Shown: positions 28,349-57,505 of the stretch, piece after piece
How positions within the stretch are numbered: the first letter of the stretch is position 1
Layout of the letters: each line of letters opens with the position of its first letter
Source of the DNA: Deltaproteobacteria bacterium
GTDB taxonomy: Bacteria; Desulfobacterota; B13-G15; RBG-16-54-18
Reading direction: 5' to 3'
DNA: 64,000 nt
NCBI GenBank assembly: GCA_019308925.1
Contig: JAFDHG010000007.1
Coordinates: 10,169 to 74,168 of the forward strand
The notes under the pieces: generated by a model
Told to the model about the DNA's origin: nothing
Databases searched by the model: none
Seen by the model: the letters and a program-made list of their open reading frames with translations, nothing else
Position numbers and translations under genes: made by a program

Positions 28349-28371
28349 AGCTCTACTTCTGAAAAAAGGCG

Positions 28372-31910: not shown

Positions 31911-32080
31911 TTTCCCCCTCCTTATCTGTTGCCGCGTTTTTAAACTAGCCCCCTCACCATGGCGACAAACAATAAAATTAACTCTGCCATTATCACCTCC
32001 CTTCTACTATGTCCTTAAAACAAATCTCCTTACATCTTAAAGATTCTCTTGATAGCTATCACCTCCTCTTCAACGGCTTG

Positions 32081-32123
32081 AAACAAAAAAGGGTTGGAGA
32101 TGACAATTTTGTTACTCCAACCC
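32081..32123 (-). terminator. Rho-independent terminator downstream of the Tat-MBL gene (GGGTTGGAG-loop-CTCCAACCC followed by a U-run on the minus strand)
   Basis: 9-bp stem with an A-run at 32081-32090 on the plus strand (a T-run on the minus strand). A further hairpin at 32231-32268 sits right after the stop. Confidence 0.5.
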
Positions 32124-32274
32124 TTGCACGTAGATTTTAGACACAGGCTTTGCTGAAAAACAGGCGCAAGATTCACCCCTGCAGTAAGCTCAAATGCCCC
32201 AACAAAAACTGTGTTGTGAACCTCTGTTGCAGACGGGTTGGAACGTCTCGAAGCGTCCCAGCCCGTCTCAGTCC

Positions 32275-33444: not shown

Positions 33445-33517
33445 CGTCTTCACCTCCTTCACTGTCCCATCACTAGGGGCAAAAACCCCTGCGCAGGACA
33501 GCAAGTTTTAGATTTTT

Positions 33518-33625
33518 CTAGGTGTAAAGCCATGTTAGCTTTCCCAAGACCGGGAGCAGCCATACGGTGACGAAATAAATTACCACTCCCAAGACTATCC
33601 CTATGACAAACCCTGCTTTAAACAT
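33518..33625 (-). CDS. 35-aa single-transmembrane peptide (MFKAGFVIGIVLGVVIYFVTVWLLPVLGKLTWLYT); not in the ORF track
   Basis: Manual translation. A strong GGAGGAGG RBS lies 7 nt upstream of the ATG. It sits exactly between the membrane protein and the MBL gene. Confidence 0.45.
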   Translation of the reverse strand: MFKAGFVIGIVLGVVIYFVTVWLLPVLGKLTWLYT

Positions 33626-33649
33626 CTTCTATCCTCCTCCTCAAAGGTT

Positions 33650-34903
33650 TTATTTTTTTACCTTTTTCCATCCTGGCCAGTTGTCCATGAACCAGTGATT
33701 AATCAGCATCAAGTTGATCAACCAGATAGTCGGGATCATAGGAAACTGCTGCGGATGGGAGTAGCCCTTCTGAGTCCCCAGGGTCAGGTGGCTGATATTG
33801 TAGTAGATCCAGTACACTGCCATCCCGCCGAAGATGGCGACGAGGGTACGGATCACCCAGTTGACAGGCGTGCTGAATCTATTGGGCCAGTTACCACAGT
33901 AGAAGGTAAGAAACAGGGCCGGGAGCAAGAAGAAGACCATGGTCTCTCCTACATGCAGCCAGCGCCAATCAGGGGCAAAGAGCCTGCGTGTGCCGCGGAT
34001 GGCCTCACCCCACCACAATTCCTGGGCAAAGTAGAGGAAGAAAAAGAAGCAGAAGGCAACAGCGATGATCCCAAAGAAGGAAGAAAACCCTCGCAGGACA
34101 GGCCTCTTAATAAGTCTGTAGGGGTAGCGCTCCCAGATAGTTTCTGTCAACCACACCGATATGGTACAGCACATAATCCAGGCCACATGGAAGTTTCCAC
34201 TTACCGTATTGGCAAATTTCTCCCAATAGGGCGGGCATATGGCGCAAAAATACTGCCAAGGATAGGAAAGGATGCCCATATGCGAATGCATGGTGCATAA
34301 GTAGATGATGGTGCACAGGAAGAAGGTGAAGATGAGCACGGTAACCCCCTTGGCAGGTTGCCTAAGGTCTTGCCAAGGCCACATATTGCTGAACGATACC
34401 GGCCAGGCAGGGCTCAACCAGGAAGCGAGGGCCGCAAACATCAGACAGGCCAATGCCGCATACTCGATGGCAAAGAAGTCCGTGATTCCGGGTATCTTAG
34501 TGGACTGGGCCGGATTGAAATAGGCCATGGCAAAGTTCCCCAAGATCCCTTCAAAGAATCCTTTTATCAATACCATCAATATCACGAACATTAGGGCCGT
34601 CATCACAATCCCCTTCAACACCGGGTTCCAGTTCTCAATCTGCCGACGCCTGAAGGGCCAGTAGTGCATGATGTAGACCTGCCAGATCAGAACGATAAGT
34701 ATCCACCTGGTGTACATGTAGCCAACATAAGGGGTATACATCCTGAGCCAACCTCTGGGGTCCTGGAAGATCCACCAAGTAATATAGAACACCACTAACA
34801 AGAAAACGGTATTTGCAATCTGCGGCCATGGTGCTGGCCACCTGGGAACCAATTTCCGCTCCTCCAGATAATCCTCTCCAAATATCTCTTTTGCCTTAGC
34901 CAT
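33650..34903 (-). CDS. Trp/Tyr-rich polytopic integral membrane protein (about 10-12 transmembrane segments), family not recognised
   Basis: 417 aa, strongly hydrophobic with many aromatic residues. Co-directional with and upstream of the peptide and MBL genes. Confidence 0.7.
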   Translation of the reverse strand: MAKAKEIFGEDYLEERKLVPRWPAPWPQIANTVFLLVVFYITWWIFQDPRGWLRMYTPYVGYMYTRWILIVLIWQVYIMHYWPFRRRQIENWNPVLKGIVMTALMFVILMVLIKGFFEGILGNFAMAYFNPAQSTKIPGITDFFAIEYAALACLMFAALASWLSPAWPVSFSNMWPWQDLRQPAKGVTVLIFTFFLCTIIYLCTMHSHMGILSYPWQYFCAICPPYWEKFANTVSGNFHVAWIMCCTISVWLTETIWERYPYRLIKRPVLRGFSSFFGIIAVAFCFFFFLYFAQELWWGEAIRGTRRLFAPDWRWLHVGETMVFFLLPALFLTFYCGNWPNRFSTPVNWVIRTLVAIFGGMAVYWIYYNISHLTLGTQKGYSHPQQFPMIPTIWLINLMLINHWFMDNWPGWKKVKK

Positions 34904-34971
34904 ATTGCACCCTCCTTAATTTGAGATACATACTAACATTTAAAAACCCCCTCATTGGGAACTAACTAGTC

Positions 34972-35268
34972 TCACCTCCTTTCCCTTGATCTTTTCTTCA
35001 CCCGTTGCTCGGGTTTAAAGACCTCCCTGGCGATCTCCAGCTTGCTCTTGCCCTCAACCTCAATCCCCATCTTCATCGCCTCCTCTATGAGGAGCTCACC
35101 AGACTCGGAGAGCAGCGGATAACAACTTTCAAAGGACTTAAAGTAATCATCCTCTTCTTTCAGAGAATCTCCCTCTTTATACGAATCCATCATTTCGTTG
35201 AGAAACCGAGCAGCCTTGGAAAAAACATCTCTGGTTAGAAAATCTCTTCTGCTCTTATCAATGGCCAT
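34972..35268 (-). CDS. Hypothetical 98-aa acidic protein beginning with an SRRDFL motif but with no hydrophobic h-region
   Basis: Clean ORF between the regulator and the membrane-protein gene. Not recognisable as a signal peptide. Confidence 0.5.
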   Translation of the reverse strand: MAIDKSRRDFLTRDVFSKAARFLNEMMDSYKEGDSLKEEDDYFKSFESCYPLLSESGELLIEEAMKMGIEVEGKSKLEIAREVFKPEQRVKKRSRERR

Positions 35269-35332
35269 CCATATTCTCCACAGGACTTACACTGTTCTGT
35301 CTCCACATAAACAAACTTCATCTACCTCACGA

Positions 35333-35782
35333 TCAAGCGGCCAACAATCGCTTCCTGTTAAACCGGAAATAATCGCACTCTTCGCATGGAACTGTACAAT
35401 TAATTTTCTGATGCCCCACCTCCTCCCTGAGGGCATAACAGTTTAGGGCCTTAGTTTTGTATACGAGACACTGCTCACAACTTAGGCCAGGGCGGACGTG
35501 AGTATCTATTGTTGTGCCATAGAATTCCCAGCAAAATGCTGTGGTCTCGTCGGTATGGTCGTAGACGCTTAAGTCCACACCTGTTTCTTGCGGGTCTGGA
35601 AATGGAATTCTATTTTTCCTTAAGAATGCGACCAGATCTTTGGGTAAAATTCGCCAATGGCCCGTTTTACCAATCCTATACCCCTTAAGTTTATCCTGTT
35701 GGAGCCATCGTTTTACTGTCTCCCGTGAATGGTGACATAATTTGGCCACTGCACCTGTTGTAAAGCTCTTCTTTATCCCCAT
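35333..35782 (-). CDS. HTH regulator (excisionase/MerR-like HTH_17 N-terminus) with a seven-Cys C-terminal domain
   Basis: N-terminus TTGAVAKLCHHSRETVKRWLQQDKLKGYRIGKTGHWRI. C-terminal CxxC and CxxxCxxC-type spacing suggests metal or Fe-S binding. Confidence 0.7.
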   Translation of the reverse strand: MGIKKSFTTGAVAKLCHHSRETVKRWLQQDKLKGYRIGKTGHWRILPKDLVAFLRKNRIPFPDPQETGVDLSVYDHTDETTAFCWEFYGTTIDTHVRPGLSCEQCLVYKTKALNCYALREEVGHQKINCTVPCEECDYFRFNRKRLLAA

Positions 35783-35888
35783 AACTGTTATCTGTTCGTT
35801 TTGTGTGTTTTGGACAACCTATTTCATCTGTTTTTCTTTGTCAAGCACTTTTTGAAAAAAATATAGCAGTGATTACCCCTCGCCTTGT

Positions 35889-35917
35889 TTGCTATACCTA
35901 AGCGGTTATGATATAAT
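35889..35917 (+). promoter_or_regulatory. Sigma70-like promoter (TTGCTA-17-TATAAT) for the COG0523-fusion gene
   Basis: It is followed by an AAGGAGA RBS 10 nt upstream of the GTG start at 35941. Confidence 0.45.
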
Positions 35918-35940
35918 ATGTTTAAGGAGAATGATCTGTC

Positions 35941-37884
35941 GTGGCAACGCTTAAAGATCTACAGCCTTCGGGGATCGTAACCCAACCTGATTTGGGATTT
36001 CCGGATCTAATTGAAAATTTTTTTATCAGACTCTTCTATGAACCCCGCATCAAGGAACTGATCGGCTGGATCGGTATTGCCTATAGTGAGACCTCCTCAA
36101 GAGGCTGGACCATCAGGGTAAAGGGGCAGAAGGGCATCTACGGCCTCCAGTACGGGGGATGTGAGAAGGAAGATCCCACCTGGAATCACGGGATCTTCTA
36201 TATCCAATACTTTCCTGCTGCGGATGAGGATATCTTAGATTGTTTCTCCATACACGAAAATATCCTCCGTCAAGACCCATCATTCGAAGGCTTACTCCGT
36301 GAGAGACCACCAGGGATTGATCCTCTCGATGCTCAATTCATCGTGGGAAGGTTGATTCTGTCTATCGACGCTGAGGAGAACAACCTCTTTCTTTCTCTTT
36401 GGGCGCCTGAAAAATGGCGCGAGATCCTCAAAGATGGGCTCAGTTTGCCTCAAGATGATGGTACTATGGTTGAGGCTATTCCCGCCGGGGGGATGGACCG
36501 CGATGTCCCAGCCTATACTCTATCGTGGCCCTTTTTTGACAAAATCGTTCTTACTGCTGCGTACCACCTCAAGCAGCCTCCAGTCTTTGTGACCTTAAAG
36601 GGGCGTCCAGCCCAGGTCTTCGAGATCACTGGCGAAAATCAATACACAATTAAACACAACCCGGATATCGAAGAACGGTGTCTCTCCGTTGGGTTCGGCC
36701 CTGAACTGGGAGAGGGAACAGATGATCCTCGACTCGACTTGGTGAAGAGCTTCTTCCCCGCAGAGGCCTCTTCTCCCTCTCCCCCTCCCTCAAGAGTGAT
36801 CTGGTCTATAACATCACAACAGCCAGATCCCGCAAAGGGGAACCCTCTCTGGTGGGAAGCCCCCTCTTGGGAGGAAACGCTTAAACTGAAGGGGGTCAAG
36901 GCCTTAGGATTAGACTACCGACCCCCTCTATTGTTTATTACTGGCTTTTTGGGGAGCGGCAAGACCACACTGCTCAACCAGGTTGTCGAACATTACTCCG
37001 GGATGCGCAACGAATTCGTAGCCATAATCCAAAACGAGGTGGGGCAAATTAACGTGGACGGCGAATCCACAGATGGAGCAATCGCTGTTACTGAATTAGA
37101 GGAGGGTTGTGTCTGCTGCACCCTTCTCGGGGAGTTTCGAAGGGCCATCCGCAAGATCTGTATCGAGTATGAACCAGACTTGATCATTGTGGAGACAACC
37201 GGAGTTGCCGATCCCCACAATATCCTGGCGGAACTGCCTCAACTCAAGCCCTTTGTGCGCTTTGACTCTATGGTCACAGTCGTGGATGGGGCCAACCTTG
37301 AACGGATACTAAAGGAATACCCTGTGGCTACAGCACAGATTGAGGCCTCAGACTTAGTCCTTTTGAATAAATGCGACCTGATGGACGATCAAACCCTTGC
37401 CTGGGCACAGCCGACGCTTGAGAGGATCAATCCACGGGCGACCATTGTTCATACTGTCAATGCCCAAATTCCTCCAGGGCTTTTGCTCTGCACCCAAGAC
37501 GACATTGATACACCTCATCCAGGACAGCCTTCGGATAGGAAAAAAATGCCCCTGTCTGAGCGTCATTTGGCCGAACGCCCCAGTTTGGCCCTTGACTCAC
37601 AAAACATCGAGACCGTCACCGTAGTGCTGGAAGGTCGCTTTAAGGAAGTCAAATTAATTCAGCTATTGGATAATCTGTCTGACTCTGTCTATCGATTGAA
37701 AGGATTTGTTAATATAGAGGGTTTGGAAAAAACCCAATTGCTACAATATGTTGCCGGCCGCTATGAATTTGAAACCCCGCCCAAACCCCATCCCGGGCCC
37801 AATACACTGGTTTTCATCGGTCGCCATCTCAACGAAGAGGCCCTTAAAGCCAGCTTGAAGTACTGCTTAGCAGAGGAGGGCTAA
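35941..37884 (+). CDS. COG0523 (CobW/ZigA/YciC-type G3E) GTPase with a ~300-aa N-terminal extension of unknown function
   Basis: The C-terminal half has a P-loop (GFLGSGKTTLLN), the metal-binding CVCC motif (EEGCVCCTL), a switch region (VETTGVADP), NKCD (LLNKCDL) and a CobW_C-like tail. The N-terminal 300 aa match nothing recognised. Confidence 0.8.
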   Translation: MATLKDLQPSGIVTQPDLGFPDLIENFFIRLFYEPRIKELIGWIGIAYSETSSRGWTIRVKGQKGIYGLQYGGCEKEDPTWNHGIFYIQYFPAADEDILDCFSIHENILRQDPSFEGLLRERPPGIDPLDAQFIVGRLILSIDAEENNLFLSLWAPEKWREILKDGLSLPQDDGTMVEAIPAGGMDRDVPAYTLSWPFFDKIVLTAAYHLKQPPVFVTLKGRPAQVFEITGENQYTIKHNPDIEERCLSVGFGPELGEGTDDPRLDLVKSFFPAEASSPSPPPSRVIWSITSQQPDPAKGNPLWWEAPSWEETLKLKGVKALGLDYRPPLLFITGFLGSGKTTLLNQVVEHYSGMRNEFVAIIQNEVGQINVDGESTDGAIAVTELEEGCVCCTLLGEFRRAIRKICIEYEPDLIIVETTGVADPHNILAELPQLKPFVRFDSMVTVVDGANLERILKEYPVATAQIEASDLVLLNKCDLMDDQTLAWAQPTLERINPRATIVHTVNAQIPPGLLLCTQDDIDTPHPGQPSDRKKMPLSERHLAERPSLALDSQNIETVTVVLEGRFKEVKLIQLLDNLSDSVYRLKGFVNIEGLEKTQLLQYVAGRYEFETPPKPHPGPNTLVFIGRHLNEEALKASLKYCLAEEG

Positions 37885-37921: not shown

Positions 37922-39028
37922 TCATATCCTCACCAGCTCATACCCCCTACTGCCCAGCCCCATCTCCTCACCATATGCCAACTGGACCTCCCAGTCTACC
38001 TCCCGATGTACCGCCCGGAACTTGTCCTCCCCGGGGGGGAGCCCTGTCGTATACGGTGAGTGCGGGTTGCCCGGTTGCGCCCTTACCAAATCGACAGAGG
38101 CCTGGTCAATGGCCACCGGGTCATCTGAGGCGAGGATCCCCACATCCCCCACGATGGGGGCATCGCTGTGTCCGTAGCAGTCGCAGTACGGGCTTACCTG
38201 GGTGACAAAGCTCACAAACGCCACCCTCTCCCCTTTATTTTTCAACGCCCCCGCCGCATACTCCACCATCTTGCGCTGGAATTCCGGAGCAACCTCATCC
38301 CACTGGATCTTGATGGCCCCCTGCGGGCAGATCACATAACACTCTCCACACCCCACACACCTATCAGGGTCGATAAAGGCCTTCTCGTCCTTTATCTCGA
38401 TGGCCCCATGCGCACACCACTCGACGCAGGTTCCACAGCCAACACACGCTTTCCTCTTCACCTTCGGTGCTACGGTGGAGTGCTGGCTCAGCTTCCCCTT
38501 CCGGCTGGCACACCCCATACCCACGTTTTTTATAGCCCCACCAAAGCCGGTGAGTTCGTGACCTTTAAAGTGCGTCGCCACAAGCAGAGAATCAGCAAAG
38601 TAGATCTCATGGGCGATGCTCACTTCATGGTAGGTCTTCCCCTCTATTGGTACCCGAACAGAGGCGTTACCCCTCAGGCCGTCTGCAATAATGATCGGGG
38701 CCATCACCACAGAGAAGGAAAAGCCGTTCTCCACCGCCGTTATGAGATGGGAGACCGCATCGGACCTGGTGCCACCATAGAGGGTGTTGGTGTCGGTGAG
38801 AAAGGGCTTCCCCCCCAGTTCCTTCACCCGCTCGACGATCCGGCGCAGGAAGATGGGCCTGATATAGGCGGTGTTTCCCCGCTCGCCGAAGTGGAGCTTG
38901 ATGGCCACCGTCCCCTTGGGCCTGATCCTCTTGGGGAGCTCCACCCTCTCTAATAACTCCCCCACCTTGTCCAGAAGATTTCTTTTGACCTCGGCCCTAA
39001 GGTCAGCGAAATAGACCGTGCTCGCCAT
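37922..39028 (-). CDS. DUF362-family protein fused to a 2x[4Fe-4S] ferredoxin domain
   Basis: Two CxxCxxCxxxCP motifs (CVGCGTCVEWCAHG; CVGCGECYVICPQG) inside a DUF362-like scaffold. Confidence 0.7.
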   Translation of the reverse strand: MASTVYFADLRAEVKRNLLDKVGELLERVELPKRIRPKGTVAIKLHFGERGNTAYIRPIFLRRIVERVKELGGKPFLTDTNTLYGGTRSDAVSHLITAVENGFSFSVVMAPIIIADGLRGNASVRVPIEGKTYHEVSIAHEIYFADSLLVATHFKGHELTGFGGAIKNVGMGCASRKGKLSQHSTVAPKVKRKACVGCGTCVEWCAHGAIEIKDEKAFIDPDRCVGCGECYVICPQGAIKIQWDEVAPEFQRKMVEYAAGALKNKGERVAFVSFVTQVSPYCDCYGHSDAPIVGDVGILASDDPVAIDQASVDLVRAQPGNPHSPYTTGLPPGEDKFRAVHREVDWEVQLAYGEEMGLGSRGYELVRI

Positions 39029-39118: not shown

Positions 39119-40054
39119 CTAAGGTTTACTTTCAACGTAAGCTGGATATATCTCCCGCAGGACCTCCTCTGCCCCCTGGGCCAAGAGATCCTCGGCCAAC
39201 CTCTTCCCCACCTCCTCAGGGTCCTCCCCCTGGGCCTCAGCGCGTATAAGGTGGGAGCCGTCAAGACGGGCCACCATCCCCCGCAACAGGAGCCCCCCCT
39301 CGTGCACCTCTCCGTAGGCAGCGATGGGGACCTGACACCCCCCTTTCAGCCGGCGCAGAAAGGCCCTCTCCCCCCTCACAGCCATGGCGCTTTCGGGGTG
39401 ATGGACAAAGGCGATCAACTCGTTGACCTCGGCATCCTGTCGGCACTCAATCCCCAGGGCCCCCTGGCCGACGGCCGGGAGCATCACCTCGAAGGGAAGG
39501 TATTCGGTGATGCACTGTTCCAGCCCCATTCGGCAAACCCCGGCAGCGGCCAGGATCACGGCATCAAGCCCCTTAGTCTCCAGCTTCCTGATCCTGGTGT
39601 CCAGGTTTCCCCGCATGGGGACTATTTCCCAATCTGGGTTGACCCCTAAAAGCTGAGCCTTTCTGCGTAGGGAGGAGGTCCCGATTCTGGCCCCAGGGGG
39701 GATCTCCTGCAGTCCCCGCCCCTCCCTAGAGACCAACACATCCCTGGGGTCCTCCCTTTCGGTGATGGCCCCAAGGTGAAGACCTGGAGGAAGTTCGGTG
39801 GGGACGTCCTTCATGCTGTGCACAGCCAGATCTATCTCCCCGCGCAGGAGGGCCTCCTCTATCTCTTTGACAAAGAGCCCCTTCCCCCCCACCTTGGCCA
39901 GCGGCACATCCATGATCTTGTCTCCGGTGGTCCGGATCCGGACCACCTCCCAGGGAAGCCCTGGATACCTCGCGGTGATCCTGCCCTGCACCCATGCGGT
40001 CTGCTGCAGGGCAAGCTTACTCCCTCGGGTACCGATCCTTATTACCTTTTTCAT
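39119..40054 (-). CDS. hemC: Hydroxymethylbilane synthase (porphobilinogen deaminase). The real start is MKKVIRIGTRGSKLAL at 40054; the track ORF is over-extended to 40243.
   Basis: Canonical HemC N-terminus and conserved blocks. The 63-codon upstream extension is not protein-like. Confidence 0.9.
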   Translation of the reverse strand: MKKVIRIGTRGSKLALQQTAWVQGRITARYPGLPWEVVRIRTTGDKIMDVPLAKVGGKGLFVKEIEEALLRGEIDLAVHSMKDVPTELPPGLHLGAITEREDPRDVLVSREGRGLQEIPPGARIGTSSLRRKAQLLGVNPDWEIVPMRGNLDTRIRKLETKGLDAVILAAAGVCRMGLEQCITEYLPFEVMLPAVGQGALGIECRQDAEVNELIAFVHHPESAMAVRGERAFLRRLKGGCQVPIAAYGEVHEGGLLLRGMVARLDGSHLIRAEAQGEDPEEVGKRLAEDLLAQGAEEVLREIYPAYVESKP

Positions 40055-40373
40055 AGCCCAGGTGCTAGAGGCCTTCCCCTTTCCTTGAGGTAATCTTCGT
40101 ATGAATTCAATCCATCTAAAAAACCACAAGATCCCCTTTTTGTCAAAGGGAAAGGTGGGGAAAAAGTAATACCTCAGTCTTGGTGGGATGGGTTTCAAAG
40201 GGCCTCTTGTCCCCGAGCGAAGTTGCTGGGAGCGGTGGGGCACCCACCGAGGGTGAGCAGGAAGGGGAAAGCCCCGCCTAGGGTCGCCGCGAAAGCTCTG
40301 AAGCGAGGGGATAAGAGGTCCTCCTCCCCTGATAAGTGAGGCATTACAGGAAAAAAGTAGGCCTTACCGGCTG

Positions 40374-40955
40374 CTACAGCTCCTGCTCCATTGCCATCTT
40401 CCCCAACAACCCCTCGGGGCCGAAGGGAAGGGGGGCAAAGATGATTTGTTCCAGTTTTTTTATCCTTTCATAAAGAAAGTTAAGGCGATCTTTCCTGCTT
40501 TCATCCACTCCATACTTCCTGATTATGTACTCGAACCTCTCTTTAATGCTCACCAGCGTTGTCTCCATCACCCTCTTGTCCGCATAGTTGACCACCGCTA
40601 TCTCGGAGATCCTCATCTCCTCGTCAGGGAGGTGGACGTGGTAGTAGACTATATCGGCCACCTTATAAAGCCCCCTCTCCCTGAGCCACTCTCCTCCCAG
40701 GCGAGCGTGATCCTCACCCGTTTTGAGGCTGTGGGCCTTGGCAACGTCGTGCAGAAAGGCCCCAGCCTCGACCAAGGAAAGCTCCAAGGTATAACCCGCC
40801 TTTCTAAGTTCACGGCCCAGAAAGCAGGCCACCTCGGCTACCTTTTTGCTGTGTTCGATTATATGGTGAGGGACGCCGAACTCCTGCAGGAGTTCCCAGG
40901 CCTCTTGCGGGGTGATCTCACCGTTTTGATAAGGGATTCCAGTATATAGTTCCAT
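40374..40955 (-). CDS. HD-domain phosphohydrolase-like protein
   Basis: The H...HD...D pattern is present (HHIIEHS...FLHDVAK). Confidence 0.75.
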   Translation of the reverse strand: MELYTGIPYQNGEITPQEAWELLQEFGVPHHIIEHSKKVAEVACFLGRELRKAGYTLELSLVEAGAFLHDVAKAHSLKTGEDHARLGGEWLRERGLYKVADIVYYHVHLPDEEMRISEIAVVNYADKRVMETTLVSIKERFEYIIRKYGVDESRKDRLNFLYERIKKLEQIIFAPLPFGPEGLLGKMAMEQEL

Positions 40956-41113: not shown

Positions 41114-42478
41114 ATGAAGGCGCGGATAAAATTGGAGCTCATCACCCCGGCGGTGGAGGACAATGCCCCCATCCCCAACCTCTCCCTCGCCACGGTGGCC
41201 GCCCTGACCCCGCCCGAGGTTGAGATCTCCTTCACCGATGACCTCGTCAACCCTATCGACCTGGATGGCGACCTGAAAGACGTGGACCTAGTGGGGATCA
41301 CCTGCTCTACCAAGACCGCCCCCAGGGCCTACGAGATCGCCAGGTCCTATCGCGAGCAGGGAACTCCCGTAGTCCTGGGGGGAATCCACCCCACGGCCAT
41401 GCCCGAAGAGGCCCTGGGGCACTGCGATGCCGTGGTGGTAGGGGAGGCAGAGGAGAGCTGGCCCTCCCTGATAGAGGACTTCCAAAGGGGAAAACTGGAG
41501 CGGATCTATCGGCAGGGGGGGTTCACCCCTCCGGAACAGATCCCTCAGGCCCGCCGCGACATCTACAACCCCAAGGACTACTTTCCCATTGACTCCCTGC
41601 AGGCCACCCGAGGTTGCCCCTATCTGTGTGACTTCTGCTCTGTGAGGAGGTTTTTCGGGGGGACCTTTCGCTACCGCCCCTTAGAGGATGTAATAGAGGA
41701 GATCCGCTCCCTGCATCACAAGGTGATCATGTTTGCCGATGACAATATCGTGGGCCACCCCCGCTACTCCAGAGAGCTACTAGAGGCCCTCATCCCCCTG
41801 CGGAAGAGGTGGATCGGCCAGGCCTCCCTGGCCGGCTTAGAGGATGAGGAAATGATCAAGCTCATGGTGAAAAGCGGCTGTGTGGGGCTTCTCATCGGCT
41901 TTGAGTCCATCTCCGAGGAAAACATCAAACTATCGAGAAAGTATCAGAACCGGCCTGCTGAATATCAGGGGATCATTCACAACCTGCACCGGCACGGCAT
42001 CGCCATCTGGGCCTCCTTTCTGTTCGGCTTCGACCACGATGACAAAGAAATCTTTGGACGGACGGTACGCTTCGCCATAGAGGCCAAGTTCTTCTCGGTG
42101 GTCTTCGCAATCCTCACCCCCTACCCCGGCACCGCCCTCTACGAACGCCTAAATGAGGAAGGGAGGCTGACCGATGAGAGGTGGTGGTTATTAAAGGATC
42201 AGGAAGCCTACGCCCCCCATTTCCACCCCCGGGGGATGACCAGGGAGGAGCTCCGGGAGGGGTGGGAATGGGCCTGGCAGGAGTACTATTCCTATCCCTC
42301 CATCCTGAGGAGGTTTCAGTGGGAGTATCCGCCCACCTTGGTCAACAAAGCTATCTACTTCCCTTTTAACCTCATTCAACGTCGCTTCGTCCGCAAAAAG
42401 ATCCTCAGGGGGGAGAGGCTCAGGTGGACCAAGGTTCCCTGGAAGAGTGGAACGGCTCAGCCTTGGACGTTGATGTGA
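41114..42478 (+). CDS. B12-binding-domain radical SAM protein (class B)
   Basis: N-terminal cobalamin-binding Rossmann-like region and a CxxxCxxC motif (CPYLCDFC). 454 aa. Confidence 0.85.
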   Translation: MKARIKLELITPAVEDNAPIPNLSLATVAALTPPEVEISFTDDLVNPIDLDGDLKDVDLVGITCSTKTAPRAYEIARSYREQGTPVVLGGIHPTAMPEEALGHCDAVVVGEAEESWPSLIEDFQRGKLERIYRQGGFTPPEQIPQARRDIYNPKDYFPIDSLQATRGCPYLCDFCSVRRFFGGTFRYRPLEDVIEEIRSLHHKVIMFADDNIVGHPRYSRELLEALIPLRKRWIGQASLAGLEDEEMIKLMVKSGCVGLLIGFESISEENIKLSRKYQNRPAEYQGIIHNLHRHGIAIWASFLFGFDHDDKEIFGRTVRFAIEAKFFSVVFAILTPYPGTALYERLNEEGRLTDERWWLLKDQEAYAPHFHPRGMTREELREGWEWAWQEYYSYPSILRRFQWEYPPTLVNKAIYFPFNLIQRRFVRKKILRGERLRWTKVPWKSGTAQPWTLM

Positions 42479-42539
42479 GGCTTGACTTGCCAAGGGGGGG
42501 TATGTTAGCAATGGTAAAAATGCGGGCTGGAGGCTGAAA

Positions 42540-43436
42540 TTGAGGAAGAATCTTTTTTTGGCCCTTCTCCTTTTCCTCTTGATGCTGGGATGCACAGGAG
42601 GGGAGGTGGGTTTGAAAGGGCTCCTCCCCTCTCCCACCGAGGTGCAGGGGGTCACGAAAGAAGGCTGAGCTCAGGTCTATAAAGGAACAAAGCTCTTCGA
42701 CTACATGGATGGGGGGGCGGAGCTCTTTTACGAATACCACTTTGAGCAGGCGTGCGTGCAGAGGTATCAGACCCCCCACGGGGAAGCCACGGTGGAGATA
42801 TACCAGATGGACCTCCCCGCCCATGCCTATGGGATCTACACCTTCGACACCCAGGGGGAGCACCCCTTGATAGGACAGGACGCCACCTATGAGAGGGGGC
42901 TTTTGACCTTCTGGAAGGGGAGCTACTTCGTCAGGGTCTTCTCCCAGAACGAGGGGCTCAAGGAGACTATCCTGGCCCTGGGGCAGACCATCGCCCAAAA
43001 GATCCCCCAGGAAGGGGCCAGACCCGATATTCTGATCTCCCTCCCCCAACAAGGAATGATACAGGACTCCCTCCTCTATTTCCGCGGGATGATCGCCCTG
43101 AACAACGCCTATTTCCTCTCCCACCAGAACGTCCTCTCCCTGGGGGAGGGCGCCGAGGGGATCACCTTTAAATATACGCCAGGGGCTCAACCCCTCAGGG
43201 CCATCATGGTGCGCTATCCGGGTAGTCCCCAGGCCGATGAGGCCTTCCAGGCCTTTTGTTCATCTAAAGTCATCAAAGAAGGCGTCTTGAAAGATGGGGT
43301 CTTTGGGGGAAAGAGCAGGAGGGGATACGGAGGGGCCAAATTGGTGGGGGATCTCTTGGTCCTGGTCTTCGACGGGAAAGACCCACGTATCGTCACAAAC
43401 GTCTTAAAATCTCTACCGCATAAAGGGGGTAGGTGA
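42540..43436 (+). CDS. Lipoprotein gene (TTG start, lipobox LMLGC) interrupted by a single in-frame TGA at 42666-42668. It could be a pseudogene, a read-through or selenocysteine codon, or a sequencing error.
   Basis: The signal-peptide segment (42540-42665) and the 243-aa track ORF (42705-43436) are in the same frame, separated only by the TGA. A GGAGG RBS precedes the TTG. Confidence 0.5.
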
Positions 43437-44161
43437 TGAAGAGGGTAGCTATAGCCATCTTTCTGGGGGCAGCAGCCGGTGGGGTCGGGATTATTGTCTA
43501 TGAATTGATTGACCAATGGATCTGGGGCTGGTTGACCACCGGGATCCTCCTGGGAATAGTCTCCCAGGTCCCTCACCTTGCCAAGGGGAGGTGGTTCTGG
43601 TGGGGACTTATAGGGGGTGGCACTATCCTAGTCGGCTGGTACCTAGGCAGGGTGATAGGATATCCCGTCTGGCTCGCCTGGCCCCTCCTGGGGGCGGTTT
43701 TCGGTACCCTCTGCTCTCGTAACGGGTTGGGTTGGAGGATCGGCGGGGGCCTGGTCGGCCTTCTGGGTGGACTCTTGGGGATAGGCACCCTCCCCCTGAT
43801 CACCATGGTCCTCTTGCCGTACCTAGGGCTTCCCACCACCTTTGACTACGACATGGACGTGCTAGGGTTGGTGGTGGCAGGGGCCTTTATCGGGGGGACC
43901 ACTGCTAGCTTTCACCACGATTACCCCCTCACCTGCCCTTCAGCCAGGCAGTGGTCCCCGGGGCACAAGATGCCCGAGCAGGGATCCCCAACCCCTTTGT
44001 GGAGGGGGACAAGCCCCTGGTGGTCTCTGTCCAGGGGAAGGCCCCGGAGCAGATGCTCCGCGCCGCATTGGAGGCCCTGGGTGGCCTCAAGCCTCTGGTG
44101 GGGGGTGGAAAGGATGCCCTCATCAAGCCCAACTTTGTCTTCCCCCAGCCTTTCCCCATAA
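43433..44161 (+). CDS. Gly/Trp-rich integral membrane protein (~5 transmembrane segments). The last ~75 codons overlap the next gene out of frame and look non-native.
   Basis: ATGA overlap with the lipoprotein gene. The hydrophobic core ends near 43930. The tail is low-complexity. Confidence 0.55.
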   Translation: MMKRVAIAIFLGAAAGGVGIIVYELIDQWIWGWLTTGILLGIVSQVPHLAKGRWFWWGLIGGGTILVGWYLGRVIGYPVWLAWPLLGAVFGTLCSRNGLGWRIGGGLVGLLGGLLGIGTLPLITMVLLPYLGLPTTFDYDMDVLGLVVAGAFIGGTTASFHHDYPLTCPSARQWSPGHKMPEQGSPTPLWRGTSPWWSLSRGRPRSRCSAPHWRPWVASSLWWGVERMPSSSPTLSSPSLSP

Positions 44162-44922
44162 CCACAGATCCGGAGATGATCTTTTTGATGACCCACCTCC
44201 TGCGGGAGTCAGGGGCCTCAGGGGTGGAGGTCTTCGACTCCCCGGGGACCTACCTGGTAGGAACCGAGCGGGAGACCTTTGACTTCTATGACCTCATACA
44301 CAAAGGAAAGGAAAGAGGGATTACAGTCACCTACGGTGATGCGGGCCGCCGCCGGGAATATGTGAAGACCAGAAAGGAGGGGTGGCGGGCTTACCAGGAG
44401 ATCATCGTGCACAAGAAGGTTTATCAAGCCCAGGTAATCGTCAACATGCCCTGCCTTAAGAGGCACCATACTTCCTTCCTGACCTGCGCCCTGAAGAACA
44501 ACTTTGGTGCCATCTATGGGCCCCAGCGCTGGGATGCTCACATCCGGGGAGAGGGTTTCCGAAAGGGGATCAAAGGGGCTAGTGAGAGGGCCAAGACCCC
44601 TTTCCGGGATGAAACCCACTTCATGACTGCTCTGGCCGAGTTCGCCGATGCGGTGCGCCCCGAACTTTCCATCGTGGACGCCAGGACCATCCTCATCAAA
44701 GGAGGCCCCACCAGGGGGAAGGGAGAGCTCAAGAAGGGGGTCAACAGGTTCATCCTGAGCGGTGATATAGTGGCCTTGGACACCTACTGCTCGCGGATCA
44801 TGGAGGAGCACGACGAGACCTACACCACCGAGATGATACTGCCCTACCTGAGAGTGGCCGAGAGGCTAGGGCTGGGGACCATGGACCTGAACAAGGTGAA
44901 GGTGATCGAGCTAAGGGTATAA
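43951..44922 (+). CDS. DUF362-family protein without a ferredoxin domain
   Basis: GTG start. A DUF362-like N-terminus (…EALGGLKPLVGGGKDALIKPNFV…). 323 aa. Confidence 0.7.
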   Translation: MVPGAQDARAGIPNPFVEGDKPLVVSVQGKAPEQMLRAALEALGGLKPLVGGGKDALIKPNFVFPQPFPITTDPEMIFLMTHLLRESGASGVEVFDSPGTYLVGTERETFDFYDLIHKGKERGITVTYGDAGRRREYVKTRKEGWRAYQEIIVHKKVYQAQVIVNMPCLKRHHTSFLTCALKNNFGAIYGPQRWDAHIRGEGFRKGIKGASERAKTPFRDETHFMTALAEFADAVRPELSIVDARTILIKGGPTRGKGELKKGVNRFILSGDIVALDTYCSRIMEEHDETYTTEMILPYLRVAERLGLGTMDLNKVKVIELRV

Positions 44923-49200: not shown

Positions 49201-51654
49201 ATGGAGTATGTTGTGATGCTTCCTGCCAAAAGGCCTTTGCCGGTGAATATCGAAGATGAGATGCGCAAATCCTATATGGATTATGCCATGAGCGTCATCA
49301 TCGGGCGGGCCCTCCCGGATGTGCGGGATGGACTCAAGCCCGTACACCGGCGAGTCCTCTATGCCATGCACACACTCGGAAACCATTGGAACAAACCCTT
49401 CAAGAAATCGGCCCGGGTGGTGGGAGACGTTATCGGGAAATACCACCCCCATGGGGACGCTGCGGTCTACGATACCATCGTCAGGATGTCCCAGGACTTT
49501 TCTCTACGCTACCCCCTTGTGCAAGGGCAAGGCAACTTCGGCTCAGTGGACGGGGACTCTGCAGCTGCCATGAGGTATACAGAGGTCAGGCTCACCCGCT
49601 TGGCCCATGAACTACTGGCAGACATCGATAAGGATACGGTAGACTTTGGGCCCAACTATGACGATTCCCTTCAGGAACCCCTGCTTCTGCCAGCCCCTTT
49701 CCCTAACCTCCTAGTCAATGGCTCAGCAGGCATCGCCGTGGGGATGGCCACGAATATACCACCCCACAACCTAGTTGAGGTCATCGACGCCATCGTGGCC
49801 CAGATAGAGGATCCGAGAATAACCATCGAGGAGTTGATGGAGTTCATCCCTGGGCCCGACTTCCCCACCGGTTCCATCATCTATGGGAAGGAGGGGATTA
49901 GGGCGGCCTATCAGACGGGTAAGGGGGTCATCCATCTCCGGGCCCGGGCCTTGGTGGAGAAGCAAAAGGGGGAGCGTGATCGGATCATCATCACTGAGAT
50001 CCCCTATCAGGTGAACAAGGCCCGCCTAGTGGAGAAAATCGCCCTGTTGATGCAAGAGAAGCGCATCGAGGGGATCTCCGAAGTAAGGGATGAGTCCGAT
50101 CGAGATGGTATGAGGATAGTATTGGAGCTCAAAAAGGACGAGGTGGCTGAGGTGGTACTCAACCAACTCTATAAGCTCACCCAGATGCAGGTCTCCTTCG
50201 GGATCATCCTCCTGGCCATAGTGGACAACAGGCCTTCCGTTTTAAATTTAAAGGAACTTATCGGCCATTTTATCGAACATCGCAAGGTGGTAGTCACCCG
50301 TCGCTCCCGCCACGAACTGCGTGAGGCCGAGGCCCGTGCCCACATCCTGCAAGGGCTGCTGAAGGCCTTGGGCCAGATAGATGCCATTATCGCCCTGATC
50401 AAGGGTTCAAAAACACCAGCTGGGGCGAAGGAAACACTGGTTAAAAGATTCGCATTCACCGAGGCTCAGGCTCAGGCCATCTTGGACATGCGGCTGCAAC
50501 GCCTCACTGGCTTGGAACGAGAGAAGGTCGCCGAAGAGTTCGAAGGGCTGAGCAAGGAGATCGCTAGGCTTAGACAGATCCTCGGCGATGAAGGGCTCTT
50601 GATGGAGGTGATCGTCAAGGGGCTACGGGATATCCAAGAGGAGTTCGGTGACCCCCGTCAGACACAGATCATCGAGGAGGAGGGGGAAGTTCGTCTGGAA
50701 GACCTCATCCTGGAGGAGGATATGGTGGTCACCATAACGCATACCGGCTATATCAAGAGGACGTCGCCTGGACTTTATCGCAGCCAACGCCGAGGTGGGA
50801 AGGGGAGGTTGGGTATCACTGTAAAGGATCAGGACTTCGTGGAACACATCTTTATCGCCTCCACCCACCATTACATCCTCTTTTCTACCGATAGAGGTAA
50901 GGTCTATTGGTTGAAGGTGCATCAAATACCCCAGGCTGCCCCCTCAGCCAAGGGTAAGGCCCTGGTCAACCTCATCACCCTCTCTCCCCAGGAGAGGATA
51001 ACGGCCATCCTCCCGGTTAAGGAGTTCAAGTCAGGAATATCCATCATCATGGCTACCAAAAAAGGGATGTTGAAAAAGACCGCCCTGCAGGCCTTCAGTC
51101 ATCCGCGCTCCGACGGTATCATCGCCCTACGCCTGGGGGAAGGGGATGGTCTGGTAGCTGCTAAGCTCTCTATGGAGAAGAGGGAGATCTTTTTGGGGAC
51201 GCGCATGGGAAAGGCGATTAGGTTCAAGGAGACTCAGCTTAGGGAGATGGGCAGAGGAGCCAGAGGGGTTAGGGGGATCAACCTCGGGCCGCATGACCGC
51301 TTGGTCGCCTTGGAAATCATCCAAGAGGGGGCCTTTATCCTCAGCGTGACCGAAGGGGGCTACGGGAAAAGGACCTCTTTATCAGAGTACAGGTGTCAAA
51401 ACCGGGGAGGGAAAGGGGTGATCAACACCATGGTCTCCGAGAAGAATGGACCAGTAGTGGGTATTCTGCAGGTTGTGGAGGAGGACGAGGTGATCTTGAT
51501 TACAGATAAAGGTAAGGTATTGAGACTCTCGGTGGAAGACGTCCCCCTGCGGGGGAGAAATACCATAGGGGTCAGGCTCATCGGCCTGGAGGAAGGGGCA
51601 AGGGTGGTGGGTTTGGCAAAACTCGTGGAAAAAGAGAAAAAGGACTTGACCTAG
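49201..51654 (+). CDS. gyrA: DNA gyrase subunit A
   Basis: 817 aa with the active-site Tyr region (AAMRYTE), a QRDR-type region and C-terminal beta-pinwheel repeats. Confidence 0.95.
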
Positions 51655-51780
51655 AATTGTTTTTTTGATAAATATGAAATTGTTGTACATCTTGGTCTTT
51701 AAAAGCCTTCGGCTTTGGAATTTAAAATGGGTTAACAGGCTTTCAAGATTTTTTCCCTTCTCCTATCTATCTTAAAAAGA

Positions 51781-51800
51781 TATCCACAAATTGTGGATTA
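51781..51800. promoter_or_regulatory. Two inverted DnaA-box-like 9-mers (TATCCACAA / TTGTGGATTA) forming a 17-bp palindrome upstream of dnaA
   Basis: Each matches the TTATCCACA consensus at 8 of 9. They sit in an AT-rich intergenic region (51655-51860). Confidence 0.5.
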
Positions 51801-51860
51801 AATGTCGAAAAATCCATTTATGAAAAACTGTGACCCCCTTAAAAATCTTTGGTATAAATC

Positions 51861-53189
51861 ATGGAAGATTTCTGGCTACAGGTTTTAGAGGCCATCAAGG
51901 GACAGATAAATATAAACAGCTTTGAGACATGGATTAAACCCATTCAGGTTGGGTCCCTATTAGAGAAGGAGATCATCCTCGAGGTGCCCAATAACTTCTT
52001 CCGTGACTGGGTCGCCGAGCATTACTTAAATACTATAAAAACGGCTCTTTATGACCTAACTGGTGAAGATTTTTTGGTATCCCTACAGACAAAGAAGATG
52101 AAGCCTCCCTACCTGAAAGGGGCTTCGGAAAAGAAAGTGGCGGTTGATGAAGATTTGGCCAGCCGCATGTTCAACCTCCGGTATACCTTTGAAAATTTTG
52201 TGGCTGGTGCGGGGAACCAATTTGCCCATGCAGCATCACAGGCAGTAGCCGACACACCAGGGAGAAGATATAACCCCCTGTTTATTTATGGCGGGGTTGG
52301 GTTGGGGAAGACACATCTATTGAACGCCATCGGCCACCGAATGGTAAAAAACAGGACCGTCTCTGACCCCAACAAGCTGTGTTATATCTCTTCTGAGGAG
52401 TTCACAAATGAACTGGTCAACTCCATTCGTTTTGAGCGCATGGATGGATTTAGGCGGAGGTTCAGGAGTGTCGAGGTACTTCTGATAGACGATATCCAGT
52501 TTATTTCTGGGAAGGAGAGGACGCAGATAGAGTTTTTCCATACTTTCAACTCTTTGTATGAGAACAAAAGGCAAATTGTAATCACGAGCGATAAGTTCCC
52601 TCGAGAAATCCCTGATTTTGAGGAGCGTCTCAAATCCCGCTTTGAGTGGGGTCTCATCGCCGACATCCAACCTCCTGATGTTGAGACAAAGGTGGCTATT
52701 CTAAAGAAAAAGGCAGAGCTAGAAAATATATATATACCTAATGATGTAGCATTTTTTTTGGCTTCTCACATCAATTCTAATATCCGCATATTGGAGGGCT
52801 GTCTCATAAGACTGGGGGCCTTTGCTTCTCTTACCAAGAGGGAAATTACCCTAGAAATGGCCAAGGAGGTATTGAGAAGCTTTATAAAAGACAGGGAGGC
52901 GACAATTTCCATCGATAATATACAAAAGAGGGTTGCATCCTATTTTAACCTAAAGCCAAAAGATCTGAGGTCTAAAAGGAGATTGAAACAAGTGGTGATA
53001 CCCAGGCAGATAGCCATGTATCTTGCCAAAAAGCTCACTACTTGTTCCCTCATAGAGATTGGGGAAAAGTTCGGTGGAAAGGATCATTCTACGGTTATCC
53101 ACTCTATAAAGAAGACTGAAGAAAAGATTTCCCACGATAAATACATAAAAAGTGTAGTCGATGATCTAATGGCAAAAATTAGGGAGTAG
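51861..53189 (+). CDS. dnaA: Chromosomal replication initiator DnaA
   Basis: AAA+ Walker A (GGVGLGKTHLL), sensor motifs and a C-terminal DNA-binding domain. 442 aa. Confidence 0.95.
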   Translation: MEDFWLQVLEAIKGQININSFETWIKPIQVGSLLEKEIILEVPNNFFRDWVAEHYLNTIKTALYDLTGEDFLVSLQTKKMKPPYLKGASEKKVAVDEDLASRMFNLRYTFENFVAGAGNQFAHAASQAVADTPGRRYNPLFIYGGVGLGKTHLLNAIGHRMVKNRTVSDPNKLCYISSEEFTNELVNSIRFERMDGFRRRFRSVEVLLIDDIQFISGKERTQIEFFHTFNSLYENKRQIVITSDKFPREIPDFEERLKSRFEWGLIADIQPPDVETKVAILKKKAELENIYIPNDVAFFLASHINSNIRILEGCLIRLGAFASLTKREITLEMAKEVLRSFIKDREATISIDNIQKRVASYFNLKPKDLRSKRRLKQVVIPRQIAMYLAKKLTTCSLIEIGEKFGGKDHSTVIHSIKKTEEKISHDKYIKSVVDDLMAKIRE

Positions 53190-53317
53190 TTTTGCACAGA
53201 GATGAACTTCGATATGTGAAAATAGTAAACAAACTTATTCTCTTTATTATCAGTGAATTATAGGAGATATTAACCTTTTAACACCTATTATTACTACTAA
53301 GAACTAAGGAAACTTAT
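53190..53317. other. Candidate DNA-unwinding-element-like spacer: AT-rich (about 30% GC) dnaA-dnaN intergenic region
   Basis: Composition judged by eye against flanking genes of about 55% GC or more. It contains only weak DnaA-box-like 9-mers (TTATCAGTG). Confidence 0.35.
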
Positions 53318-54424: not shown

Positions 54425-54480
54425 GACCAGAGATATCCCCTCCTATAAAAATGTCTTTTCCTGTTCATTTCATAGATTAA

Positions 54481-57505
<3,025 letters not shown>

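What the first reader, a model, noticed from the sequence alone, without database searches (positions are those of the whole stretch)
41114..44922. B12-radical SAM, interrupted lipoprotein, Gly/Trp-rich membrane protein and DUF362 operon, with a second DUF362-ferredoxin and an HD protein nearby
Four co-directional genes are tightly packed with 4-nt overlaps. The first is a class-B (cobalamin-binding) radical SAM enzyme. The second is a lipoprotein whose signal peptide and mature domain are separated by one in-frame TGA. The third is a multi-pass membrane protein. The fourth is a DUF362 protein. A second DUF362 fused to 2x[4Fe-4S] lies 3 kb upstream on the other strand, beside an HD-domain protein. 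Class-B radical SAM enzymes carry out unusual methylations or C-C bond formation, often on lipids or peptides at the membrane. DUF362 has no assigned function. Together this looks like an uncharacterised membrane-associated modification pathway.
Basis: partly seen in the sequence, partly recalled or inferred. Interest (0 to 1): 0.6.

Follow-up and report, generated by a model that had tools for sequence, protein, structure and literature searches.

The report
Broken envelope gene trio beside radical-SAM gene
The four genes are not one pathway: a cobalamin-type radical SAM gene happens to sit next to a widely conserved but uncharacterised trio of exported envelope proteins, and in this assembly that trio carries two disabling lesions.

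Summary
The genes and domains are as described: a B12-binding radical SAM enzyme (rSAM), a DUF6599 lipoprotein with an in-frame TGA, a Gly/Trp-rich membrane ORF, a DUF362 protein, and an upstream DUF362-ferredoxin and HD protein. The operon reading does not hold.

- **rSAM linkage.** It is linked to DUF6599 only in one Thermodesulfobacteriota clade. There, 0.06-8.4 kb of variable genes separate them. More distant rSAM orthologues sit in other contexts.
- **Conserved unit.** This is DUF6599 plus DUF362, adjacent in about 50 of 60 genome loci across at least eight phyla. A small membrane protein lies between them in two phyla.
- **Lesions here.** The TGA is a CGA(Arg)-to-TGA change, not selenocysteine. 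The membrane/DUF362 overlap comes from a 42-nt inverted segment between 12-nt inverted repeats, plus loss of the DUF362 start and Tat signal.

Whether the lesions are real decay or assembly error cannot be decided without reads. Function is inferred: a periplasmic, possibly redox, envelope module.

The parts
41114..42478 (+). Class-B (B12-binding) radical SAM gene, 454 aa, of an uncharacterised subfamily. It is a neighbour of the trio, not a conserved partner.
   Evidence: Pfam: B12-binding 54 bits, Radical_SAM 63 bits, DUF4070 33 bits. Below all NCBIfam cutoffs. The closest solved relative by sequence is AprD4, 6fd2, E 6e-13. Synteny is limited to one clade.
42540..43436 (+). DUF6599 lipoprotein gene, 298 codons, disrupted by an in-frame stop at codon 43.
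   Evidence: TTG start preceded by GGAGG; signal peptide with lipobox LLMLGC. Homologues of about 299 aa span the whole length. PF20244, 102.9 bits.
42666..42668 (+). In-frame TGA: a nonsense change of an Arg codon.
   Evidence: The closest relative L001 has CGA here; others have AGA, AGG or CAC. The aligned residue in 24 homologues is R, H, Q, S, E, K or P, never C. No SECIS-like hairpin (z -1.2).
43433..43905 (+). Canonical part of the small Gly/Trp-rich membrane protein gene. Relatives are about 162 aa and end TTAWLKGR*. As assembled, the ORF runs on to 44161.
   Evidence: Start overlaps the DUF6599 stop by 4 nt, as in L001 and L070. 63-78% identical to relatives. The family has only 9 representatives among 1.84 billion proteins.
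43894..43959 (.). Rearranged junction: 12-nt perfect inverted repeats (43894-43905 and 43948-43959) flank a 42-nt segment that is inverted relative to all relatives.
   Evidence: Inverted repeat found. The reverse complement of 43929-43961 translates to PGTTAWLKGR* and aligns with the 3' end of the membrane gene in L001, L003 and L070. About 110-200 nt present in relatives are missing: the intergenic region with ribosome-binding site, the DUF362 start and the RRDFIK signal.
43951..44922 (+). DUF362 gene, N-terminally truncated: 323 codons from the first GTG, against 354 aa in relatives. It has no twin-arginine signal.
37922..39028 (-). Cytoplasmic DUF362 paralogue with an inserted 2x[4Fe-4S] ferredoxin module.
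   Evidence: PF04015, 171 bits, plus Fer4 families at residues 185-245. Syntenic with hemC in relatives.
39119..40051 (-). hemC (porphobilinogen deaminase), lying between the DUF362-ferredoxin and the HD gene.
   Evidence: Porphobil_deam 284 bits.
40374..40955 (-). HD-domain protein, transcribed divergently from the rSAM.
   Evidence: PF01966, 38.6 bits. Present at this position in only some relatives: L008, L010, L014, L015.

Best explanation
The region holds two unrelated things.

(1) **An uncharacterised cytoplasmic class-B radical SAM enzyme.** Its adjacency to the next gene is local synteny in one Thermodesulfobacteriota clade.

(2) **A conserved exported module.** Its parts are:
- a Sec-exported DUF6599 protein, a lipoprotein in this clade, with two PknH-sensor/Mog1-PsbP-like ligand-binding domains;
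- a lineage-specific small membrane protein of about five transmembrane segments;
- a Tat-exported DUF362 protein, probably lipid-anchored through a conserved Cys after the signal, with a LarA (lactate racemase) fold.

Inferred mechanism: DUF362 folds, and probably acquires a cofactor, in the cytoplasm. It is exported by Tat and acts as the catalytic subunit at the outer face of the inner membrane. DUF6599 binds or presents an envelope ligand (lipid or glycolipid type). The membrane protein tethers or couples them. In other phyla this place is taken by a NapH-NapG-type transmembrane polyferredoxin, which suggests electron or hydride chemistry.

In this assembly the module is disabled twice. 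A CGA-to-TGA nonsense codon follows the DUF6599 signal peptide. A small inversion plus deletion removes the membrane gene's stop and the DUF362 ribosome-binding site, start codon and Tat signal.

Shown: anatomy, conservation, export signals, folds, lesions. Inferred: substrate, chemistry, and whether the lesions exist in the living cell.
For: - **Conserved pair.** DUF362 lies on the same strand next to DUF6599 in about 50 of 60 genome loci. These come from Thermodesulfobacteriota, Nitrospinota, Zixibacteria, Ignavibacteria, WOR-3, Aminicenantes, Gemmatimonadota and Myxococcota, in three gene orders.
- **Export.** 39 of 39 partner DUF362s have an RR motif. All DUF6599 sequences have an N-terminal signal, and Cys18 is at least 90% conserved in the alignment.
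- **Redox hint.** A NapH/NapG-fusion polyferredoxin is a neighbour in 10 loci. The cytoplasmic paralogue carries 2x[4Fe-4S] inserted next to the conserved H..K motif.
- **Envelope context.** LptF/LptG, PAP2, a GT-C/ArnT-like transferase, a PpgS-like GT2 and a deacetylase flank the trio in Nitrospinota and Desulfobacterales.
- **Lesions.**
- **rSAM not linked.**
Against: - No experiment exists on any DUF6599 or exported DUF362 protein: no paper mentions DUF6599, and none found characterises DUF362.
- The substrate and the redox role rest on neighbourhoods seen in a minority of loci.
- Residue-level equivalence to the LarA cofactor ligands could not be tested.
- Within its own clade the rSAM is directly adjacent to DUF6599 in four loci (the window, L009, L012, L069). 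Co-transcription there is not excluded.
- dN/dS of the three module genes against L001 (0.16-0.28) equals that of the flanking genes (0.17-0.26). Any inactivation is therefore very recent, or is an assembly artefact.
Confidence: 0.6

Rival explanations
1. One reading: the rSAM, lipoprotein, membrane protein and DUF362 form one operon that encodes a membrane-associated lipid or peptide modification pathway, with the rSAM as the key enzyme.
For: - The genes are co-directional, with only 61 nt between the rSAM and DUF6599 here.
- The rSAM lies upstream of DUF6599 in 8 genome loci plus L069, L070 and L065.
- In several relatives an HpnB-like glycosyltransferase lies between them, and the weak best rSAM hit is HpnJ.
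Against: - The linkage is confined to one clade, and 0.06-8.4 kb of unrelated, variable genes intervene.
- It is not seen next to DUF6599 in L001, L007 and L011, where the contig ends 0.5-2.4 kb upstream, nor in any other phylum that carries the trio.
- rSAM orthologues at 61-68% identity sit beside other B12-rSAMs, without DUF6599 or DUF362.
- The rSAM is cytoplasmic, while both partner proteins are exported.
Confidence: 0.1
2. The two lesions are assembly or sequencing artefacts of this metagenome-assembled genome, and the living organism has an intact trio.
For: - Only one assembly of this contig exists: single-member clusters, all on the 86,150-nt contig.
- dN/dS shows no relaxation.
- A short inverted segment between perfect 12-nt inverted repeats is the kind of structure that template switching or graph mis-joins can create.
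Against: - Two independent lesions fall within 1.3 kb inside one functional module. The flanking genes checked (rSAM, HD, DUF362-ferredoxin, AAA_33, PHP, APH-like, dGTPase-like) are full length and colinear with relatives.
- A C-to-T nonsense change at CGA is the commonest natural nonsense mutation.
Confidence: 0.4
3. The TGA is decoded (selenocysteine or another recoding) and the lipoprotein is made full length.
For: - Thermodesulfobacteriota commonly use selenocysteine (general knowledge).
- The reading frame is otherwise intact across the TGA.
Against: - No homologue has Cys at this column; they have R, H, Q, S, E, K or P, and the position is poorly conserved.
- The closest relative has CGA.
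- The downstream 60 nt fold no better than 27 of 200 shuffles.
Confidence: 0.02
4. The 42-nt segment between the 12-nt inverted repeats is a programmed invertible switch that toggles the C-terminus of the membrane protein and expression of DUF362.
For: Perfect 12-nt inverted repeats flank a segment that gives the canonical C-terminus and stop in one orientation and read-through in the other.
Against: - 42 bp is far shorter than known recombinase-driven invertible segments (general knowledge).
- No recombinase gene is nearby.
- Relatives lack the arrangement.
- Even the flipped orientation leaves DUF362 without its Tat signal and out of frame with the upstream GTG.
Confidence: 0.03

Closest known systems
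[quoted passage not shown]
   Same: - DUF362 and the LarA N-terminal domain are in the same Pfam clan, CL0471 (PMC11770544).
- The invariant H203-x9-K213-x14-H228 of the exported DUF362s has nearly the spacing of LarA His174-x9-Lys184-x15-His200 (residue roles from PMC11770544).
   Different: - Only 9-14% identity, with no Lar_N sequence match for the exported protein.
- About 320 mature residues against about 425.
- Tat-exported and probably lipid-anchored, whereas LarA enzymes are cytoplasmic.
- Paired with a DUF6599 protein and, in some phyla, a NapGH-like polyferredoxin.
- No demonstrated cofactor.
PknH extracellular sensor domain and related envelope ligand-binding domains of the Mog1/PsbP-like fold (TiME, TP0453, LpqN, DcrB, RseB/MucB)
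   Same: - Like them it is exported, and often a lipoprotein.
   Different: - 4-14% identity.
- DUF6599 is a two-domain protein of about 300 aa; only about 120 residues align.
- No kinase or anti-sigma partner.
- It is always next to a DUF362 gene.
Characterised class-B radical SAM enzymes (HpnJ, BchE, HpnR, PhpK, AprD4, the ladderane-associated lipid rSAM)
   Same: - B12-binding domain, CxxxCxxC radical SAM core and a DUF4070 C-terminal domain.
- Best profile hits are HpnJ and BchE.
- Best solved relative is AprD4.
   Different: - Scores are a fifth or less of every family cutoff: 98 against 577.6 for HpnJ, 95.5 against 481 for BchE.
- No hopanoid, bacteriochlorophyll or antibiotic genes are nearby.
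- Its only steady neighbours are hemC and, in relatives, a second B12-rSAM.
NapGH quinol dehydrogenase module of periplasmic nitrate reductase
   Same: In 10 related loci a fused NapH-like membrane domain plus NapG-like polyferredoxin lies next to the DUF362/DUF6599 pair: NapG 104 bits, NapH 103 bits, both below cutoff. This suggests electron delivery to a periplasmic enzyme.
   Different: - Absent from this window and its clade, where the small Gly/Trp-rich membrane protein occupies that position.
- No NapA-type partner.
- The fusion architecture itself is uncharacterised.

Membership tests
Class-B (cobalamin-binding) radical SAM | Radical SAM core with a CxxxCxxC motif | tested here: met
   PF04055, 62.6 bits against a cutoff of 29.5. 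The motif C-PYL-C-DF-C is in the translation.
Class-B (cobalamin-binding) radical SAM | N-terminal B12-binding domain | tested here: met
   PF02310, 54.2 bits against 32.1, residues 20-117. Actual cobalamin binding is not testable here.
HpnJ / BchE / HpnR / PhpK / other named B12-rSAM equivalogs | Score at or above the NCBIfam curated cutoff | tested here: not met
   HpnJ 98.1 against 577.6; BchE 95.5 against 481; rSAM_ladder_B12 77 against 360; HpnR 66 against 650.
DUF6599 (PF20244) | Profile match above the gathering score | tested here: met
   102.9 bits against 27 for the part after the TGA, starting at profile position 12. The domain therefore spans the stop.
DUF6599 (PF20244) | Uninterrupted reading frame of about 300 codons, as in homologues | tested here: not met
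   TGA at codon 43, where 24 aligned homologues have a sense residue.
Bacterial lipoprotein | Signal peptide ending in a lipobox with an invariant Cys | tested here: met
   MRKNLFLALLLFLLMLGC. Cys18 is at least 90% conserved in 41 homologues. Lipidation itself is not testable.
DUF362 (PF04015) | Profile match above the gathering score | tested here: met
   111.5 bits against 24 (43951-44922) and 171.1 bits (37922-39028).
Tat-exported DUF362 subfamily (partners of DUF6599) | N-terminal twin-arginine signal (S/T-R-R-x-F-L/I-K) | tested here: not met
   Present in 39 of 39 partner DUF362s and in L001, L069 and L070. Absent from the window, where the region is deleted or rearranged.
LarA / nickel-pincer nucleotide enzymes | LarA two-domain fold | tested here: met
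   [not shown]
LarA / nickel-pincer nucleotide enzymes | Sequence membership in Lar_N/DUF2088 | tested here: not met
   The exported DUF362 has no Lar_N hit. The ferredoxin paralogue scores 16.9 bits against 23.3. A profile search of the PDB does not reach LarA.
LarA / nickel-pincer nucleotide enzymes | Cofactor ligands equivalent to Arg75, Lys184 and His200, and catalytic His108/His174 | tested here: inconclusive
   The invariant H203, K213 and H228 have LarA-like spacing. No residue-level superposition was available, and no counterpart of His108 or Arg75 was identified.
LarA / nickel-pincer nucleotide enzymes | Cofactor biosynthesis genes larB, larC and larE in the genome | not tested
   Only a 64-kb window is available. 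No Lar_N, LarC or LarE family was listed for the genes called in the seven loci retrieved with the look-up of encoding contigs; larB/larC/larE were not searched for directly, either there or in the window.
Selenoprotein | Cys in homologues at the UGA position, and a SECIS hairpin downstream | tested here: not met
   No Cys at that column. The fold has z -1.2.

The most novel reading that the evidence does not exclude
The DUF6599/DUF362 pair is an unrecognised, phylogenetically broad periplasmic enzyme system.
- A LarA-fold protein retains an H..K..H cofactor-site signature and is exported folded by Tat.
- It carries out hydride or electron-transfer chemistry on an envelope lipid or glycolipid that the DUF6599 partner presents.
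- It is wired to the quinone pool by a NapH-NapG fusion in some phyla and by a small Gly/Trp-rich membrane protein in others.

This would be the first extracytoplasmic branch of the nickel-pincer/LarA structural superfamily.
Probability: 0.15. Interest if true: 0.7.

Novelty: new variant of a known kind. Interest (0 to 1): 0.35.

Why it matters
- **Correction.** The class-B radical SAM gene should not be annotated by guilt-by-association with these neighbours.
- **A better target.** DUF6599 plus Tat-exported DUF362 is a gene pair conserved across at least eight phyla, and no paper in the searchable library mentions DUF6599. The LarA-like fold, the obligatory Tat export, and the recurrent envelope (LptFG, PAP2, GT-C) and NapGH-like neighbours give concrete hypotheses for two domains of unknown function.
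- **A caution for annotation.** In this metagenome-assembled genome, an 'in-frame TGA' and an 'overlapping gene pair' are lesions that comparison with relatives can diagnose.

Tried and rejected
- **Selenocysteine or recoding of the TGA.** Rejected: no Cys in homologues, CGA in the closest relative, no SECIS.
- **DUF362-DUF6599 fusion as a Rosetta stone.** Long ORFs in L054, L039 and L043 were examined. They are high-GC out-of-frame read-throughs; the two domains lie in separate frames.
- **Independent assemblies of the junction.** Two exact-pattern scans of metagenome contigs found nothing, not even the source contig. Cluster look-up shows a single 86,150-nt contig.
- **Sequence route to solved structures.** DUF362 and DUF6599 found nothing significant. 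A residue-level LarA alignment could therefore not be made.
- **Rfam scan of the window.** No riboswitch or other RNA family.
- **Promoter and terminator scan of 40.3-45.3 kb.** No more sites than in shuffles.
- **Literature.** No papers on DUF6599 or Npun_F2552. DUF362 appears only as an outgroup or as an appended domain.
- **Small membrane protein.** No Pfam or NCBIfam family. Only 9 representatives in 1.84 billion proteins, none fused to another domain.
- **Phase-variation switch at the 42-nt segment.** Considered and judged very unlikely.


Full report
**Source and anatomy**

The window comes from a Deltaproteobacteria/Thermodesulfobacteriota metagenome-assembled genome. Its proteins match GenBank entries MBW2038369-71, locus tag JRI46_02060, on an 86,150-nt contig.

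On the + strand:
- A 454-aa protein at 41114-42478 has B12-binding, Radical_SAM and DUF4070 domains.
- A DUF6599 gene starts at TTG 42540, behind a GGAGG. It encodes the lipoprotein signal MRKNLFLALLLFLLMLGC and ends at 43436, with a TGA at 42666-42668, codon 43.
- A Gly/Trp-rich hydrophobic ORF starts at GTG 43433 and overlaps the preceding stop by 4 nt.
- A DUF362 ORF runs from GTG 43951 to 44922.

On the - strand lie a DUF362 with an inserted 2x[4Fe-4S] module (37922-39028), hemC (39119-40051) and an HD protein (40374-40955).

Only one junction is a 4-nt overlap, the rSAM-DUF6599 gap is 61 nt, and hemC separates the DUF362-ferredoxin from the HD gene.

**The TGA**

About 120 homologues of roughly 299 aa cover the whole reconstructed protein. 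At the TGA column they have Arg (most), His, Gln, Ser, Glu, Lys or Pro, never Cys. The closest relative (84% identity, L001) has CGA there, and others have AGA, AGG or CAC. The downstream RNA folds no better than shuffles.

This is a C-to-T nonsense change, not selenocysteine. The GenBank call from ATG 42705 would lack the signal peptide and the first strand of the domain.

**The membrane/DUF362 overlap**

In relatives the membrane protein is about 162 aa and ends ...GGTTAWLKGR*. A gap of 44-230 nt follows. DUF362 is then 354 aa and begins with a twin-arginine signal (for example VRERGRKEISRRDFIKLSIGGAAALSAWGVGC).

In the window, homology stops at 43905 and resumes near 43960. Perfect 12-nt inverted repeats (43894-43905 and 43948-43959) flank a 42-nt segment. 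The reverse complement of that segment encodes exactly the missing C-terminus and stop, PGTTAWLKGR*, and aligns with relatives. The ribosome-binding site, the start codon and the RRDFIK motif of DUF362 are gone.

The 211-nt overlap is thus read-through caused by a small inversion plus deletion. GenBank's consecutive accessions skip the membrane ORF.

**Are the lesions real?**

- Only one assembly exists, and exact-match scans of metagenome contigs found nothing.
- The flanking genes checked are full length.
- dN/dS against L001 is 0.16-0.28 for the three module genes and 0.17-0.26 for the flanking genes.

The lesions are either very recent or artefactual. Two independent hits within one module make me lean slightly towards real decay, but only the reads can decide.

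**What is conserved**

A scan of one genome per species returned 60 loci that encode DUF6599. DUF362 lies on the same strand beside it in about 50 of them. Three gene orders occur:
- DUF6599-membrane-DUF362 in Thermodesulfobacteriota and Nitrospinota;
- DUF6599-DUF362(-DUF362-polyferredoxin) in Zixibacteria and Ignavibacteria, and DUF6599-DUF362(-LVIVD propeller) in Aminicenantes and others;
- DUF362-DUF6599 in Myxococcota.

The small membrane protein is a tiny family: 9 representatives among 1.84 billion proteins, all free-standing.

The rSAM behaves differently. An orthologue (79-88% identity) lies upstream in only 8 of the 60 loci, plus L069, L070 and L065, all from one clade. Between it and DUF6599 lie anything from 61 nt to an 8.4-kb toxin-antitoxin/restriction island, or SDR-rhodanese-HpnB-like glycosyltransferase cassettes. 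rSAM orthologues at 61-68% identity sit beside other B12-rSAMs in unrelated contexts.

The rSAM itself reaches no characterised family. Its closest solved relative by sequence is AprD4.

**What the conserved module looks like**

All 39 partner DUF362s have an RR motif. In this clade a Cys follows the hydrophobic region, so they are probably Tat lipoproteins. All DUF6599 proteins have signal peptides, with lipoboxes in this clade.

Recurrent neighbours elsewhere:
- a NapH-NapG fusion polyferredoxin, in 10 loci;
- LptF/LptG;
- a PAP2 phosphatase;
- a GT-C/ArnT-like transferase;
- a PpgS-like GT2;
- a polysaccharide deacetylase.

**Mechanism, marked as inference**

A Tat-exported, membrane-anchored LarA-fold enzyme (DUF362) works with a periplasmic ligand-binding protein (DUF6599) on an envelope lipid or glycolipid. 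Electrons or hydride chemistry are supplied through a membrane partner. I put about 0.3 on this functional sketch. I put about 0.85 on the genomic conclusions: the two-unit structure, the export signals, the folds and the lesions.

**Verdict**

The finding is real as sequence, but its headline interpretation is not supported. What remains is a modestly interesting, uncharacterised and widely conserved exported gene pair. Here it appears as a damaged copy, next to an orphan class-B radical SAM gene.

Noticed in passing
window 49201-56913: gyrA (49201-51654), dnaA-like (51861-53189), dnaN-like (53318-54424) and gyrB-like (54511-56913) ORFs lie together, and the GC skew changes sign near 50 kb. 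The window probably spans the chromosomal replication origin. Gene names are inferred from the start of each translation and from gyrA hits in related loci.
   Followed up: partly
window 30966-37884, compared with L065:1765-5053: Relatives have ketoacyl synthase, then GntR, then the DUF362-ferredoxin. The window has about 7 kb inserted there: an alpha/beta hydrolase, a Tat-signal metallo-beta-lactamase-fold protein, two unknowns, an HTH_17 protein, and a 647-aa CobW-family GTPase with a 330-aa N-terminal extension that has no Pfam match.
   Followed up: partly
L006, L010, L013, L070 (for example L070:691-3270); L065:9497-17350: The interval between the rSAM and DUF6599 is a hot spot for variable cargo. 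It holds SDR, a rhodanese lipoprotein and an HpnB-like GT2 (149 bits against 379) in several relatives. In one relative it holds an AbiEii/MazE/PIN/N6-methyltransferase island.
   Followed up: partly
L024:12888-14399 (also L025, L027, L029, L031, L036, L057, L060): A 503-aa protein fuses a NapH-like membrane domain (two CX3CP motifs plus 2 Fe-S) to a NapG-like four-cluster polyferredoxin through an internal RR-containing hydrophobic segment. It lies next to the DUF362/DUF6599 pairs.
   Followed up: partly
L021:3572-11062, L023, L016: In Nitrospinota the trio sits between a PpgS-like polyprenyl-phosphate sugar synthase, a deacetylase and a GT-C transferase on one side, and LptF, LptG and a PAP2 phosphatase on the other. 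This resembles lipid A aminosugar-modification and LPS-export gene sets.
   Followed up: partly
L008:4405-5589, L009:6985-8160, L065:6239-7726: Relatives carry a second, divergently oriented B12-radical SAM gene (about 495 aa, about 25% identical) between hemC and the rSAM. The window lacks it and has only the HD gene there.
   Followed up: no
window 28064-28653: An adjacent RHH_5 (CopG-like) and ParE-toxin gene pair, a probable type II toxin-antitoxin module.
   Followed up: no
window 39119-40243 (-): The mechanical hemC ORF starts at a GTG about 64 codons upstream of the conserved MKKVIRIGTRGSKLA start. The extension is probably not translated.
   Followed up: no
window 37922-39028 (-), residues 157-245: In the cytoplasmic DUF362 paralogue the 2x[4Fe-4S] module is inserted directly after an H-x9-K motif (HELTGFGGAIK). 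This motif corresponds to the invariant H..K of the exported subfamily, so the clusters sit next to the putative active site.
   Followed up: partly
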